A stretch of DNA of 64,000 nt from Escherichia coli (GCF_041886205.1 NZ_CP169029.1); one strand, 5' to 3'. Shown: positions 34,001 through 40,000, counted from the stretch's first letter. Program-made: the numbers.

Positions 34001-37000
34001 GCATTCATCAGCGCACTGACGGTTTCGATAAAATCCATGCCTAACCAGGTATTTCTGTCACTGAAGATGTTGTCATGTTCCCCCGGCAGGCGAAGCAGGA
34101 TCCGCCGTACCCGGGAGCAGGACTGTTCACGCAGCGCACGGTTGAGAACACCGATGATTTTGTTCTGATAAGACGGCCAGAAGGGCGCCATGCTATAGTC
34201 GAAATAAGGAATACCATTCATAAGATATGTTCCGTTATGCGCAGCCCACAACGCGTCCTGCCCGTGGATACGCTGACGTGTTATGGCTTGCGGAATGAGA
34301 TTGATAGAATAAGTGAAGAACCGAAGCAGAACGGGAAGATCAGGTAACCGACAAGGGACAGAACACCGGATGCAGGTTCAGGGTGAATGATCTCCGTTGA
34401 CTTCAGTTCACATCATTAAGCAAGGCGGTAAGGTTTTACCGACGGAGTGTTTCCAGGAGAGGAAGCAGATAAAAATACCGTTGCATGACTTCAGGACGAC
34501 TTTTTCAGAAAACGAGCTAAGGGCGTCAACCACGCCCTTACCGTGGCATACGCTCATGCACCGGATGCCGTTTTACAGGATTTACCTGCCATCCAGTAGA
34601 CGCCCTGGCCCACGACTGCAACCATAATTACGTTGCCCGGAACCGTCATGCAGCTTCGTTTCATATTTCACTAGATAACTGGCTCTGTTCCGGGCTTTCT
34701 GCAGCGCTTCCACATCACCACGCTTGATCCAGAGAACAGCGGCTTCACCCGGCTTTTTGTCTGAAGCCTTCCTGGTTTCAGAACATCCACCCGACAAAGG
34801 CGTATCATCGGAAGAAGGGCGAGCATCAGATGATGCCGGTTTACGGAAAGGCGTCCGCCTGGAAAAATGAACCAGTCCATTACCCTGCCAAGGTTCAAGA
34901 TGCAGAGCGCTACACCATGCCAGCTTGATCAGTGTCGCCAGCGAAGAAGGAACAGTGAAATCCCCTGGCGAGCACCAGGTATCTTTGTTGAGCAGTAATA
35001 TCACGTGATAATGTTTCCTGCCTTTTTCCTTGCCAAACTCCCGACACCAGAAATAATGCAGGGTGGTTGCACGCACACGCTTGTTGGCACATCTTTTTTT
35101 CCGCTGGTAAGCCTGAATTTTGGCTTTCAGGGATGCAAAAAAACGAGAAATCACCGCTGAATCCGGATCGGGATCCATGATGGTGACAGGCATATACTCA
35201 GGGAAACGTAAATCCACCCGGATTAACGAGACGGCACGGTGCTGCGCCAGAGCACTGTCGAGAAGGCTGTCAAAACGGGATAACCAGTAAGCATTGTGTA
35301 TTGGTTGATTCATGATGAGAGATCTCCGTTGATTTGGATTGACTTCACATCATTAATCACCGCAGTAAAACTTTACGGCATCCTGTCATTAAGCAATGCT
35401 ACAACTCTCTGATTAAGAGAGATTGAAACGGAATAAACCATCCCGTAACGAAAAGAGAATCCTGCACGTAAGGTAAAAACACGCAGCAACAGCATGAATG
35501 GATTTGAAAACAATATGGATGACGAAAAAAGTCAAAAGGGAAACGGATCAACAGAACGTGCAAACAAAACATCAAAAACGCAATCAGAACGCTTTCTGGC
35601 GCTGTGAATCAACAACAACACCAAAACCTACAGCTTAACCACACAACTCAATCACAGAGCCGAATAGCGCGCTTAAAACCTGTTTACAGATAACCCCACC
35701 CCAAGAACAAAAACCACTAACATCAGAATCGATTTTCTTATCCAGAAAATGTTACGTTTCACTACACACCATAAAAACGATTAACCATCGATAACGTAAA
35801 CCTTATCTGAATCAAAACACCAAAACCGTTCATCACACTTTCGCAATGCAAGAAGAAACCTCATGACAAAAAGAATGACCTTACACGGAAAAGAAAAACG
35901 TCAGGAATCGTTAATGCCTCAATCTGATTGTTATCAAAAAATTCAGAAAGTCGTTTAACAGAATCGTCGTAAGCACATCGAAAAGAACGTCAGATTACTT
36001 CAGGAAAGCTCGGGTTGATTTAGCGTAAAGATACTTTTCTCATGCTAACGTCGAAACTCGAAATCTCAGGAAAGGTTAAACGTAACATCAGTAAAATCGA
36101 ATAGCAGATTGATTGCTGAAGCAGAAAGGTTTTACAGCAGCATTAAACTGATTTAGTTAACGTAAAGATTTACTAAACTGGATGTGTATATAGTATCATA
36201 CCGACATTCTCAACATCTTCAGACTTCCATACATACTGGGTGTTAATTTTTCACTTTTACAGCCAGCATGGAGTTTTCTGTCCTAAAAACAGAGCAGATT
36301 TACTCTGGAATTATTTTCTCTACCTCAGAAAACTTGCTCTCAATAATCTGCTATGGCTTCGTAGTTTCTGTTGTTCTTTTCATAAAAGTTATAAGTCATT
36401 GTCATAATCATACGATAATCACTTTATGTTAGTTTTTACTGTCATACGCTACTGACTTTTCAGTCATTGCCAGAAAGGGGGGCTTTTTACTTCCATTTCA
36501 CCACTCAACAAATGCAAAACTTGTCCAGTAAAGCGGACCACCTCTTGCTCACAAGCAACGAATCGTCTCCAGGAACAGCCCTCAAATATTGCAGAAACAA
36601 AAACAACAAAACCCTCATTATCACTGATGTTCGGAAATTTCCCTGAACAAAAAAAACGAAAACAAAATGAGACGCATTATCATTAATGTAGTCAAAAAGA
36701 CGTTATTGTGGCTTTCAGTTAAATGGTACTATTTCTCATAAATCCACTTAACTTTTTTTACTGATTCATCCCAGAGAACCACTTTATCAGTAAAAAATGA
36801 ATTATATAGATTGACGAGTTTTTCTGTTTCAGTTATTCCCAATGTATTATGTATAAGTTGTAGATATGCTTTTATCCAGATTTCTTTACCCTCCTTCCAC
36901 TTATCTATAAAACTTTCCAGCTTACTTAATCGTTGATTTATAAAAAACGAATCAATATCATGAAAAAGCTCAACAAGAAAACAGCACGAGACAATCTCAA

Positions 37001-40000
37001 CAAAAAACAAATTCTCCTTAAAAGCATTATAAAACTTTATCAACACATAACGAAAAACACCTCCTGTTAACCTTTCCTGTTCATAAAACAACAAGCCAAA
37101 AATAGGCGGAAATCTTTTAACCACACCACTTTTAATCCAGTAAGGATGATGATTAGTCTTTACTGGCAGTGAATAAAAGAACAATTCGGTTTCTCTTTTC
37201 CCACCACAAACAGACAAAACAGTCTTATAAAGACTTTTTGAATCACTATATCCTGACACTCCAGACGAATTAGCAGGGTATTTTCTTTTTACTTTTTGCC
37301 TTAATGGAGCTGGAAGGATAATAAAACGGGATGGTAGATAACAATCGCTTTCAGAAGACCTGCATTCGCACACATGAAGATTTATATTTACATCCGGACA
37401 ATTCAAAAACCACACAGAATAATTATCGCCCCGTTTGCAATATGAAACCCATGAATAAATTGCATAAAGTTCAGAAAGTACATCTAACTCTGCTTTTGAT
37501 TTAAATGTGATACCGTTTCTTCGAATTCTCGTTTCCAGCGTTCTCCATGCCGGAGTTTTCAGTATCTCACGAACTTTTTTATTAAGTTCAGCCAGCGATG
37601 GTCCCTGCTCCTGTTTATGTTTCTTCCTGCTGTTAATGATTTCTCTTTCTTTTACTAATTTTTTCTTACTTTTGGGTCCTTTTATCTTTCTTGGCAATGC
37701 TTCATTTAATCTGTGAACAGGATTTTGCTCTCTTCTTTTTTTGAGCTCACAAAACCTCTCATAATGTTTTCTGCACAGTCTTTTCTCCACTGCCATTTTT
37801 ACTGAGAAAACCTGATTGTTACAATTTTTTCTGACACATTTGTTTTTACGTCCGGTCATCCTCTCATCTCCTGAAACCGCAGTATGTCATTAGTTCCCGT
37901 TCGGAAAAACTCACTTCATACTCCATTACACTTTAACGATCATGTCCGTAATTCAGACATTCCATCATTTTTCACGTCCATATTACATGAATGATAAACC
38001 GGATTAGTGTGATCCGGTTCAGCGAAATCAACAGGATAACGGTATGTCATTCAGCCATTCTTCCCTCTCCGCACAAGTGAAATCATATCTGACGTTTCTT
38101 CCTGAAGAAATTCGCCAGAAAATCCTTGAACATCTCCACTGTGTTATTCATTACGAGCCCGTGATTGGCATTATGGGTAAATCCGGTACAGGCAAAAGCA
38201 GTCTGTGTAATGCCATTTTTCAGTCCCGTATCTGCGCCACACATCCTCTGAACGGCTGCACCCGCCAGGCTCATCGTCTTACCCTGCAGCTCGGTGAACG
38301 CAGAATGACGCTGGTCGATCTGCCCGGCATTGGTGAAACACCGCAGCATGATCAGGAATACCGGACACTTTATCGTCAGCTGCTACCGGAACTGGATCTG
38401 ATTATCTGGATCCTGCGGGCTGATGAACGTGCGTATGCTGCCGATATTGCCATGCATCAGTTTTTACTGAATGAAGGTGCAGATCCCTCGCGTTTTCTGT
38501 TTGTTCTCAGCCATGCCGATCGCGTGTTTCCTGCCGGCGAGTGGAACGACACAGAAAAATGCCCGTCCCGTCAGCAGGCGCTCTCGCTGGCGACGGTGAC
38601 AGCCCGGGTAGCAACCCTGTTCCCTTCATCATTTCCGGTACTCTCCGTTGCCGCGCCTGTCGGCTGGAATATTCCGGCACTGGTGTCACTGATGATCCAC
38701 GCACTGCCACCACAGGCAACCAGCGCGGTTTATTCACATATCCGGGAGGAAAACCGCTCTGAACAGGCCCGGAAACACGCACAACAGACTTTTGGTGACG
38801 CCATCGGGAAAAGCTTTGACGCTGCCGTTGCCAGGTTCAGCTTTCCAACCCGGATGTTACAGCTTCTGCGCAAAATCCGGGACCGCATTATCCACCTGCT
38901 GGTCACACTGTGGGATCACCTGTTCTGAGCGCCCCGGAGTCCCCCGTGGCAACCGTATACCTTTACACGACAACGGATTACGGCAGCCACTGCCGTATGC
39001 CGTCTGTCATTATCAATAACGCACTCTTTAATTTCAGAGGTCAGTCATGAATACCAGAATTCTTTTTCCCCTGCTGTTCACTGTGGCATCCTTCTCCGCC
39101 TCCGCCGGTAACTGGGCTGTCAAAAACGGCTGGTGTCAGACCATGACGGAAGATGGTCAGGTGCTGGTAATGCTGAAAAATGGCACGATCAGTATCACCG
39201 ACCTGATGCAGGGGTGCCCAAATGGCGTACAGACGCTCCTGGTACTCATCGGCATTAACGGCAACCTGATCCCCACATCACAAATGTGTAATCAGTAGAC
39301 AGGATTCAGGGCTGTTGAGGTGGAAGCCGGACAGGCGCCGGAAATGGTCAAAAAAGCCGTTCACTCCATAGCAGAGCGTGATGTGTCCGTTTTACAGGCA
39401 TTTGGTGTACGAATGGAATTCACCCGCGGTGATATGCTGAAGGTCTGTCCGAAATTTGTCACATCACTTGCCGGTTTTTCCCCGAAACAGACGACTACTA
39501 TTAATAAAGATTCCGTCCTGCAGGCTGCCCGGCAGGCATACGCCCGGGAATATGACGAGGAAACAACAGAAACCGCTGATTTTGGCTCTTACGAAGTAAA
39601 AGGCAATAAGGTTGAGTTTGAAGTGTTCAATCCTGAAGACCGTGCGTACGACAAAGTGACCGTCACGGTTGGTGCTGACGGTAATGCCACCGGCGCCAGC
39701 GTTGAATTTATCGGAAAATAGCCGGTATGTCGGACTGTCACCCTGTTTTATTGCCCGAAGGCCCTTTCTCACGCGAACAGGCGATGGCTGTCACAACAGC
39801 TTACCGCAATGTGCTTATTGAAGATGACCAGGGAACGCATTTCCGGCTGGTTATCCGCAATGCTGAAGGGCAGCTACGCTGGCGGTGCTGGAATTTTGAA
39901 CCTGATGCCGGAAAACAACTTAATGCGTGGCTCGCCAGTGAGGGAATTCTCAGGCAATAAACGTCATTCATTTCACCCATCAGGCCGCGTCTTCTCCGGG

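What the first reader, a model, noticed from the sequence alone, without database searches (positions are those of the whole stretch)
36729..37859. AT-rich 376-aa protein with N-terminal Cys cluster and highly basic tract, divergent from the island GTPase gene
The N-terminus (CVRKNC...CRKHYERFC) followed by a Lys/Arg-rich tract suggests a zinc-ribbon nucleic-acid-binding module; the remaining 250 aa have no motif I recognise. It lies divergent to the YfjP-like GTPase, a position that in CP4-type islands often carries variable accessory or defence genes.
Basis: inference. Interest (0 to 1): 0.45.

Follow-up and report, generated by a model that had tools for sequence, protein, structure and literature searches.

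The report
Zinc-finger protein with dead nuclease core
This is a real, conserved but unnamed gene of E. coli genomic islands, encoding a zinc-finger protein built on an HNH DNA-cutting fold whose cutting residues are gone, so it probably binds rather than cuts DNA; what it does for the island is unknown.

Summary
The ORF at 36729-37859 (-) encodes 376 aa, has 34% GC against about 52% in the flanks, carries an N-terminal Cys/His cluster and a basic tract, and is divergent from a GTPase gene.

It is a real gene: dN/dS is 0.30 against an allele with 80% amino-acid identity, and this allele type occurs in 462 of 5426 complete E. coli genomes. It matches no Pfam, NCBIfam, PHROG, PADLOC or PDB entry.

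A profile search of 1.84 billion proteins found only 38 clusters. All members whose source names an organism are Enterobacterales, and every named one is called "hypothetical protein".

The family has three subclades. One keeps an invariant H-x13-N-x8-N motif (32 of 32 proteins) that gives consistent but sub-threshold HNH matches. In the window protein those positions are E165, R178 and R187, sitting on a predicted beta-beta-alpha element, so it is most likely a dead HNH.

The gene lies within two genes of the excisionase-like AlpA in every locus with enough flanking sequence. It is usually also next to the island GTPase.

In E. coli the gene is a swappable 1.65-kb cassette. A family member with 20% identity ("type B", 977 genomes) occupies the same slot in an otherwise 93-99% identical backbone.

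My best guess is a non-catalytic DNA-binding factor of the island's AlpA-linked control module. This function is inferred, not shown. A role in phage defence is not excluded.

The parts
36729..37859 (-). CDS of the 376-aa protein, called X here (E. coli allele type A)
   Evidence: ORF listed. RefSeq annotates the 98%-identical counterpart as hypothetical protein WP_000147749.1. dN/dS is 0.30 against the 80%-identical allele.
37749..37838 (-). N-terminal CCCH zinc-finger module, residues 8-37 (C8, C13, C29, H32; C37 only in this subclade)
   Evidence: Ligands are conserved in 24-26 of 25-26 members. pLDDT is 96. The first 47 residues are invariant against the 80% allele. No curated zinc-finger family matches.
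37596..37694 (-). Basic linker predicted to be disordered, residues 56-88 (13 K/R in 33 residues, pI 10.9)
   Evidence: pLDDT below 50 over residues 58-82. Charge count.
37281..37379 (-). Degenerate HNH-like beta-beta-alpha core, residues 161-193, with E165, R178 and R187 at the H/N/N positions
   Evidence: Predicted strands 161-165 and 179-183 and helix 184-193. Family alignment to the subclade that carries invariant H/N/N. Sub-threshold HNH_4/HNH_5/HNH hits for that subclade. hhalign puts that motif in register with the SpCas9 HNH motif.
36792..37106 (-). C-terminal helical domain, residues 252-356, near-neutral (pI 6.2 over residues 251-376), containing invariant R263 and E288 and the LYNSFF motif
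   Evidence: The segment 189-329, which overlaps this domain, holds most of the differences between type A alleles.
36319..37968 (.). Exchangeable cassette: X plus about 410 nt downstream and about 110 nt upstream. It is replaced by a family member of 20% identity in E. coli strain 1105.
   Evidence: blastn of the window against L013 gives 99.3% identity up to 36190, 95% up to 36318, nothing over 36319-37968, and 93% from 37969. The replacement protein matches the family profile with probability 100%, E=1e-42.
36290..36307 (-). Terminator-like hairpin followed by a T run, at the left edge of the cassette; probable 3' end of the X transcript
   Evidence: Consensus scan (pattern match only).
37860..38043 (.). 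Divergent intergenic region between X and the GTPase gene; it includes the Shine-Dalgarno-like AGGAG at 37868-37872
   Evidence: Sequence read. It is 92% identical to the region beside the 80% allele, so it is better conserved than the CDS.
38044..38928 (+). Island GTPase (YfjP/YeeP-like), the divergent neighbour and first gene of the rightward operon that runs through DUF932, antirestriction and RadC genes and, by the annotation of the 93-99% identical island L013, a CbeA/CbtA pair
   Evidence: Pfam MMR_HSR1 E=6.5e-15. RefSeq annotation of the homologous islands.
34582..35313 (-). YagK/YfjJ-type (inovirus Gp2 / Rep-like) gene on the same strand, downstream of X
   Evidence: Pfam YagK_YfjJ_C E=2.7e-34 and REP_ORF2-G2P E=4e-9.
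33359..33712 (-). AlpA-like excisionase/regulator ORF on the same strand (the AlpA domain covers residues 63-105; the true start is probably internal)
   Evidence: Pfam Phage_AlpA E=3e-10. RefSeq annotates a 77-aa HTH regulator at the matching place.

Best explanation
The gene encodes a member of an undescribed protein family known so far only from Enterobacterales. The family belongs to the backbone of CP4/PAI-type integrative islands and travels with the excisionase-like regulator AlpA.

The protein has four parts: an N-terminal CCCH zinc finger, a basic flexible linker, a core derived from an HNH (beta-beta-alpha-metal) nuclease, and a helical C-terminal domain. One branch of the family still has the invariant His/Asn/Asn triad of an HNH nuclease. 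In the window protein, and in all members of its subclade and of a second one, those positions are replaced (here by E165, R178, R187).

The most likely mechanism is therefore this. The protein binds DNA through the zinc finger, the basic tract and the remnant nuclease fold, without cutting. It acts as an accessory or regulatory factor of the island's AlpA-linked excision, replication and expression module. Its more variable C-terminal half would mediate protein contacts.

What is shown: the gene is real and constrained; the family, its synteny and the cassette polymorphism exist; the catalytic positions are lost. What is inferred: HNH ancestry (consistent but sub-threshold), zinc binding, DNA binding, and any role in island control.
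For: Real gene under constraint: dN/dS is 0.30, with no indels, against an 80% allele, and dS is similar to that of the neighbouring backbone genes.

Narrow family: 38 clusters among 1.84e9 proteins. Every member that carries a source name is 'hypothetical' and from Enterobacterales.

Zinc-ligand conservation and a confident N-terminal model. pI is 9.7, with the N-terminal 250 residues strongly basic.

HNH link. H, N and N are invariant in 32 of 32 proteins of the catalytic-type subclade. HNH-clan models are the top hit for 7 of 11 individual core segments and for both consensus cores; the best is HNH_4 at 19.9 bits against a cutoff of 22. hhalign places the motif in register with the SpCas9 HNH motif, P=0.009; that the aligned Cas9 residues are H840, N854 and N863 is from my memory of Cas9 numbering. 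AF2 (pLDDT 83, pTM 0.71) predicts beta-beta-alpha exactly there. The two best, non-significant, BFVD matches are phage HNH endonucleases.

Loss of the triad in the window protein.

Synteny. X lies within two genes of AlpA in the window, in Klebsiella and in loci of all three subclades. It is directly downstream of AlpA in L010, L008, L012 and L002, and overlaps the AlpA gene in L012. It is adjacent to the GTPase in most loci.

The family is absent from 50,697 phage genomes and from IMG/VR, and is present in only 2 of 72,556 plasmid records.
Against: No experiment and no significant match to any characterised protein supports a function.

Types A and B, at 20% identity, sit beside identical AlpA and Gp2-like genes. 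A partner-specific regulator would be expected to co-vary with them.

The cassette behaviour, the AT-richness and the fastest evolution among the backbone genes also fit a defence or conflict gene.

No convincing operator-like repeat was found.
Confidence: 0.42

Rival explanations
1. X is a stand-alone anti-phage (or anti-plasmid) defence or abortive-infection gene carried as cargo in the island's defence hotspot. The zinc finger would recognise foreign nucleic acid and the variable C-terminal half would act as sensor or effector.
For: The K-12 interval between yfjJ and yfjP carries abpAB and rnlAB. The locus is a cassette with at least three alternative contents in E. coli. The gene is AT-rich. 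It has the highest dN/dS of the backbone genes compared and evolves faster than its neighbours across genera. The surrounding window is rich in conflict genes: NERD-UvrD and ankyrin-UvrD helicases and cdiBA.
Against: No PADLOC model matches any of the three subclades. The presumed nuclease effector is inactivated in two of the three subclades. Positional conservation next to AlpA and the GTPase persists across 20-30% identity and several genera, which is unusual for defence cargo. The family is absent from phages and almost absent from plasmids.
Confidence: 0.2
2. X is a decaying free-standing HNH homing-endonuclease-type selfish cassette. It invaded the AlpA-GTPase intergenic site and now has no function for the island or the host.
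For: HNH ancestry. An AT-rich insert with sharp boundaries between conserved genes. Presence, absence and replacement polymorphism. Catalytic residues are lost, as expected late in a homing cycle.
Against: Full-length ORFs are kept in clusters of 3400 (type A) and 1527 (type B) sequences. dN/dS is 0.30 and the N-terminal 47 residues are invariant. The inactivated forms persist in the same position across E. coli, Klebsiella, Citrobacter and Atlantibacter. R263 and E288 are invariant family-wide, outside the nuclease core.
Confidence: 0.1
3. X is still an active nuclease or nickase that uses non-canonical residues, for example the lineage-specific H162, C164, C166 and C173 around the beta hairpin. 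It would cut island or competitor DNA.
For: The fold element is retained. Type A has a local His/Cys cluster, LHVCECRSSESDC. The ancestral form probably cut DNA.
Against: None of those residues is conserved even within the same subclade (Klebsiella has LQLYKLPSPSKIG). Positions equivalent to the triad vary freely in two subclades.
Confidence: 0.07

Closest known systems
HNH endonucleases (His-Me finger; Pfam HNH_4 PF13395, HNH_5 PF14279, HNH PF01844), including phage HNH endonucleases with N-terminal Cys/His modules
   Same: The catalytic-type subclade of the family shares the H-x13-N-x8-N spacing, the 'P-N-S-x-G-G' loop and a predicted beta-beta-alpha element. HNH-clan models are the top, and for most segments the only, Pfam hit for that segment. 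The best, non-significant, viral fold matches are phage HNH endonucleases.
Positional counterparts in E. coli K-12 CP4-57: AbpA/AbpB (YfjL/YfjK), YfjM and RnlA/RnlB, between yfjJ and yfjP
   Same: They occupy the same interval between the Gp2-like gene and the island GTPase, and the content varies between islands.
   Different: There is no sequence relationship: the family HMM finds nothing in CP4-57. In K-12 alpA, yfjI and yfjJ are co-oriented with yfjP, whereas here the AlpA side is divergent from the GTPase gene. X is syntenic across genera, unlike those cargo genes.
Master regulators of phage-inducible chromosomal islands (SaPI Stl; AlpA-controlled Gram-negative PICIs). This is a functional analogy recalled from the literature, not tested here.
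   Same: A highly divergent, type-specific gene sits at a divergent control region next to the excision and replication genes of an integrative island.
   Different: X has no helix-turn-helix domain. It is on the same strand as AlpA and is probably co-transcribed with it in one subclade. No helper element is known for these islands. The same X type can occur twice in one genome (55 genomes), so there is no sign of immunity-type exclusion.
Pseudomonas tmRNA-site genomic islands with IntY, AlpA, RadC, YqaJ and inovirus Gp2-like genes, moved by a jumbo phage (PMC12595487)
   Same: Same general class of integrative island, with AlpA, RadC and Gp2-like core genes plus defence cargo.
   Different: That paper does not mention an HNH or zinc-finger core gene (0 occurrences of 'HNH' or 'zinc'). 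The X family was found only in Enterobacterales.

Membership tests
HNH endonuclease superfamily (His-Me finger) | Significant match to a curated HNH profile | tested here: not met
   The window protein has no HNH hit at E<=10. The catalytic-type subclade reaches at best 19.9 bits (HNH_4, cutoff 22) for a consensus core and 12-17 bits for 7 of 11 individual cores.
HNH endonuclease superfamily (His-Me finger) | Beta-beta-alpha fold at the motif | tested here: met
   [not shown]
HNH endonuclease superfamily (His-Me finger) | Catalytic His at the end of strand 1 | tested here: not met
   The window protein has E165. His is present in 11 of 28 members of alignment A2, all from one subclade, and in 32 of 32 proteins of that subclade.
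HNH endonuclease superfamily (His-Me finger) | Asn/His residues that position the metal (second and third motif positions) | tested here: not met
   R178 and R187 in the window protein.
HNH endonuclease superfamily (His-Me finger) | Metal-dependent DNA cleavage | not testable with these tools
   Needs purified protein.
Zinc-finger / zinc-ribbon nucleic-acid-binding modules | Four conserved Cys/His ligands with compatible spacing | tested here: met
   C8 in 25/25, C13 in 24/25, C29 in 25/25 and H32 in 26/26. Spacing is C-x4-C-x15-C-x2-H. pLDDT is 96.
Zinc-finger / zinc-ribbon nucleic-acid-binding modules | Match to a curated zinc-finger family, or to a solved one | tested here: not met
   No Pfam hit for the N-terminal 58 residues. 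The only PDB profile hit is the TtuA N-terminal zinc finger at E about 0.9.
Zinc-finger / zinc-ribbon nucleic-acid-binding modules | Zinc and nucleic-acid binding | not testable with these tools
   Needs metal analysis and EMSA.
Known anti-phage defence systems (PADLOC-DB 2.0) | Match to a defence-protein model | tested here: not met
   Zero families for the window protein (type A) at E<=10 and for type B and members of all three subclades at E<=0.1.
Known anti-phage defence systems (PADLOC-DB 2.0) | Variable occupancy of a defence hotspot | tested here: inconclusive
   The slot is variable and holds abpAB and rnlAB in K-12. However, X itself is syntenic across genera.
Free-standing homing endonuclease genes | Intact nuclease motif plus sporadic presence at one intergenic site | tested here: not met
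   Sporadic and cassette-like presence is met. The nuclease motif is lost, yet the ORF is maintained under purifying selection.
Island/PICI master repressors (Stl/cI-like) | Helix-turn-helix DNA-binding domain; divergent from the excision/replication operon | tested here: not met
   No HTH domain. X is on the same strand as AlpA and the Gp2-like gene, and divergent only from the GTPase operon.

The most novel reading that the evidence does not exclude
X is a type-specific switch of the island built on a dead-HNH scaffold. The conserved zinc finger would hold it on island control DNA. The fast-evolving C-terminal half would sense a helper-encoded protein from a phage or conjugative element, coupling AlpA-driven excision to the helper's arrival. 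The A and B cassettes would then be alternative sensor specificities. This would be a new class of island regulator, analogous in logic to SaPI Stl but unrelated to it. The catalytic-type relatives in Klebsiella, Citrobacter and Kluyvera would be the ancestral helper- or island-cutting form.
Probability: 0.12. Interest if true: 0.65.

Novelty: new variant of a known kind. Interest (0 to 1): 0.42.

Why it matters
CP4/PAI-type islands are among the commonest mobile elements of E. coli, yet how they are induced and moved is largely unknown. About a quarter of complete E. coli genomes carry type A or type B of this gene (462 and 977 of 5426). It is unnamed, has no Pfam family, and always sits by the excisionase-like AlpA.

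Three features make it a tractable entry point into island control: a nuclease fold that is catalytic-type in some Enterobacterales and dead in others, a precise cassette polymorphism, and tight linkage to AlpA. Failing that, it may be a new conflict gene.

If it turns out to be only a hypothetical accessory protein, the practical gain is better annotation: an HNH-derived zinc-finger family.

Tried and rejected
- Direct annotation failed. Pfam, NCBIfam, PHROGs, PADLOC and PDB sequence searches gave nothing for the window protein.
- The first AF2 run, on a 9-sequence alignment, was unusable (pLDDT 48). The 28-sequence alignment fixed this.
- Profile searches of the PDB with the family and with the catalytic-type subclade found no HNH.
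- The idea that the A and B types are mutually exclusive 'immunity' types was rejected: 55 genomes carry two type A copies and some carry up to four type B copies.
- A second gene inside the cassette was looked for. Only short ORFs without conservation turned up.
- The 3' non-coding part of the cassette is not clearly more conserved than synonymous sites (K=0.19 against dS=0.36), so no ncRNA is claimed.
- Iteron or operator searches were unconvincing. TAACGTAAA-like and TTATCAYTNATGT motifs cluster locally, but they were derived post hoc and are not conserved exactly in related alleles.
- A K-12 homologue was looked for and none was found in CP4-57, including YfjH and YfjM.
- Literature searches by accession and by island gene names found no functional study.
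Full report
OBSERVATION. The ORF is exactly as described. It runs from 36729 to 37859 on the - strand, starts with ATG and encodes 376 aa. An AGGAG/GAGAGG ribosome-binding-like stretch lies just upstream. The gene sits in a 2.5-kb AT-rich patch (GC 0.34-0.38 against about 0.52 in the flanks). The CDS has GC 0.34 and GC3 0.29, against 0.53 and 0.55 for the GTPase gene that starts 184 nt away on the other strand. An open frame of this length in such AT-rich DNA is not a chance event (about 4e-13).

IS IT A REAL GENE? Yes.
- The 90%-identity cluster has 3400 member sequences, all called hypothetical.
- RefSeq annotates the gene as hypothetical protein WP_000147749.1.
- Against an allele of 80% amino-acid identity (L020) there are no indels and dN/dS is 0.30. 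dS (0.36) is like that of the neighbouring DUF932 gene (0.36) and somewhat above the GTPase, Gp2-like and RadC genes (0.14-0.26). dN/dS is the highest of the five genes compared.
- The N-terminal 47 residues are identical between these two alleles. Most changes fall in residues 189-329.

WHAT FAMILY? No curated library knows it: Pfam, NCBIfam, PHROGs, PADLOC and PDB sequences all gave nothing. An exhaustive profile search of 1.84 billion representative proteins found only 38 clusters. Named members come from Escherichia, Klebsiella, Atlantibacter, Citrobacter, Kluyvera, Enterobacter, Buttiauxella and Providencia, and all are 'hypothetical'. The family is absent from 50,697 phage genomes and from IMG/VR. 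It occurs in 2 of 72,556 plasmid records. It is therefore a narrow family of chromosomal islands.

ANATOMY. The 28-sequence alignment (A2) and the AF2 model built on it (pLDDT 82.9, pTM 0.71) give the following layout:
- a CCCH zinc-finger-like module (C8, C13, C29, H32), conserved in 24-26 of 25-26 sequences, with pLDDT 96;
- a disordered basic linker, residues 56-88;
- a helical region, residues 86-155, with a near-invariant W105;
- a beta-beta-alpha element, residues 161-193, with invariant P183;
- a mixed segment, residues 196-250;
- a helical bundle, residues 252-355, with family-wide invariant R263 and E288 and the LYNSFF motif;
- a C-terminal hairpin.

The N-terminal 250 residues are strongly basic and the C-terminal domain is near neutral.

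THE HNH LINK. The family splits into three subclades.

One subclade, represented by 11 clusters in A2 and 32 proteins in A6, carries the motif L-E-V-C-H-x-Y-P-N-S-x-G-G-x-N-x3-N-x2-I-x-P-x2-I-N-R. In it the H, N and N are invariant in 32 of 32 proteins. It also has an extra Cys motif near the N-terminus.

The evidence that this segment is an HNH core is as follows.
- It is the only part of any member that touches Pfam, and the models it touches are HNH_4, HNH_5 and HNH. Seven of 11 individual cores hit them at 12-17 bits. The consensus cores reach 18.0 and 19.9 bits against a cutoff of 22.
- hhalign puts the motif in register with the SpCas9 HNH motif (P=0.009).
- The AF2 secondary structure has the expected geometry.

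I therefore rate HNH ancestry as likely (about 0.75) but not proven. No curated threshold is met, and whole-chain structure searches did not retrieve HNH folds.

In the window protein the three positions are E165, R178 and R187. In its subclade and in the second one these columns vary freely. So the window protein is most plausibly a catalytically dead derivative.

CONTEXT. In the window, reading along the - strand, the order is:
- X;
- about 1.4 kb without genes;
- a YagK/YfjJ-type (inovirus Gp2 / Rep-like) gene;
- a second ORF whose counterpart in L001 RefSeq names inovirus-type Gp2, although it has no Pfam hit here;
- AlpA;
- a 145-aa ORF;
- a UvrD-ankyrin helicase;
- cdiB and cdiA.

On the + strand the order is GTPase, DUF932, antirestriction, RadC, further small backbone genes and DUF4942, followed by core genes. 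A CbeA/CbtA toxin-antitoxin pair is annotated in this stretch in the homologous island L013.

Homologues of only 20-34% identity keep this neighbourhood:
- In Klebsiella (L006, L007) the GTPase gene is divergent from X, which is followed by AlpA and a Rep-G2P gene.
- L009 has the same order, and L021 has GTPase, X, a YagK/YfjJ-type gene and then AlpA.
- L003-L005 have X, then YfjJ, then AlpA.
- In the catalytic-type subclade the order is AlpA, X, GTPase (L010, L008); or AlpA, X, one unidentified gene, then YfjI/DUF3987 and further on DUF932 (L012, where the AlpA and X genes overlap); or AlpA, X, ParM-like (L002).

X is thus a syntenic partner of AlpA across the whole family. Between genera it evolves faster than its neighbours. 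Against Klebsiella, for example, X is 30% identical while the GTPase is 52% and DUF932 is 73%.

CASSETTE POLYMORPHISM. Against E. coli strain 1105 the window is 99.3% identical up to 36190 and 95% up to 36318. There is no similarity over 36319-37968, and identity is 93% from 37969 onward. In that gap strain 1105 carries a 407-aa protein on the same strand. It is only about 20% identical to X but is unmistakably the same family (hhalign probability 100%, E=1e-42; HMM E=1e-74 to 1e-79 for six such alleles).
- Type A (this gene) is in 462 of 5426 complete E. coli genomes, and 55 of them have two copies.
- Type B is in 977 genomes.
- K-12 CP4-57 has no family member. Its yfjJ-yfjP interval holds abpAB, yfjM and rnlAB.

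The left edge of the cassette abuts a terminator-like hairpin at 36290-36307.

INTERPRETATION. The data fit a protein that binds nucleic acid through the zinc finger, the basic tract and the nuclease-derived fold, that no longer cuts, and that works with the island's AlpA module. This is my best explanation (confidence 0.42). The functional step is inferred from architecture and synteny only.

Four observations count against it.
- X is dispensable for some islands.
- Types A and B coexist with identical AlpA and Gp2-like genes.
- No convincing binding-site repeats were found.
- Cassette exchange, AT-richness and fast evolution are equally typical of conflict genes.

The rivals are a defence gene (0.2), a decaying homing-endonuclease-type selfish cassette (0.1) and a non-canonical active nuclease (0.07). 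The most novel reading still open is a type-specific, Stl-like sensor and switch built on a dead HNH (0.12).

The zinc module, the basic tract and the variable position are supported. The claim that the rest has no motif is superseded by the degenerate HNH core. 'Variable accessory or defence gene' is only half right, because the slot is variable but the occupant family is a conserved partner of AlpA.

NOVELTY AND SCORE. This is an unnamed, narrowly distributed branch of the HNH superfamily with naturally inactivated members, fixed in the backbone of very common E. coli islands. It is a new variant of a known kind. Interest is moderate (0.42). It is not startling to a specialist, but it is a concrete and testable handle on how these islands are controlled.

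Noticed in passing
window 35314-36318: A spacer of about 1 kb without ORFs lies between the Gp2-like gene and the X cassette. Its + strand is strongly A+C-rich (AT skew +0.37, GC skew -0.24). It is 99.3% identical in E. coli 1105 up to 36190 and about 95% beyond that. It has no Rfam match and no similarity to the islands of other genera. Its function is unknown; an origin, a long UTR or a silenced remnant are possibilities.
   Followed up: partly
window 36618-36630, 36677-36689 (+) and 37985-37997 (-): There are three exact copies of TTATCAYTNATGT, the only exact ones in the 64 kb. Two lie just after the X stop codon and one, inverted, lies in the X-GTPase intergenic region. The motif was derived post hoc and is not exactly conserved in related type A alleles.
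   Followed up: partly
[not shown]
   Followed up: partly
window 29621-32215 (-): An 864-aa UvrD-like helicase with ankyrin repeats (GajB-like in PADLOC, E=3e-12). It is intact here, but its counterpart is annotated as frameshifted in E. coli 1105. It is a likely defence-type cargo gene.
   Followed up: partly
window 7307-10515 (-): A NERD+UvrD helicase (8728-10515) lies next to a T6SS VasL/ImpA_N fragment (7307-8686). IS66 and ISL3 transposase genes lie at 2509-6054.
   Followed up: no
window 12973-27919 (-): A contact-dependent inhibition locus: cdiB (26153-27919), a 3259-aa cdiA (16361-26140) and a downstream orphan PT-VENN toxin module (12973-13896).
   Followed up: no
window 38044-38928 (+): The C-terminal part (residues 181-288) of the island GTPase matches the PADLOC LeoBC model (Eleos system) at E=2e-8. 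The G domain hits MMR_HSR1 and Dynamin_N.
   Followed up: no
[not shown]
   Followed up: no
P0026 (465 aa, metagenomic family member): It carries two tandem N-terminal CCCH modules. The first resembles the window's subclade and the second resembles the type B subclade, which suggests the zinc-finger module can be duplicated or shuffled.
   Followed up: no
window 55107-55177 (+) and 57864-57948 (-): An Rfam naRNA4 match (78 bits) and a tRNA-Ser(GCT) gene lie in the core-genome part to the right of the island. The last recognised island gene, DUF4942, ends at 45337.
   Followed up: no
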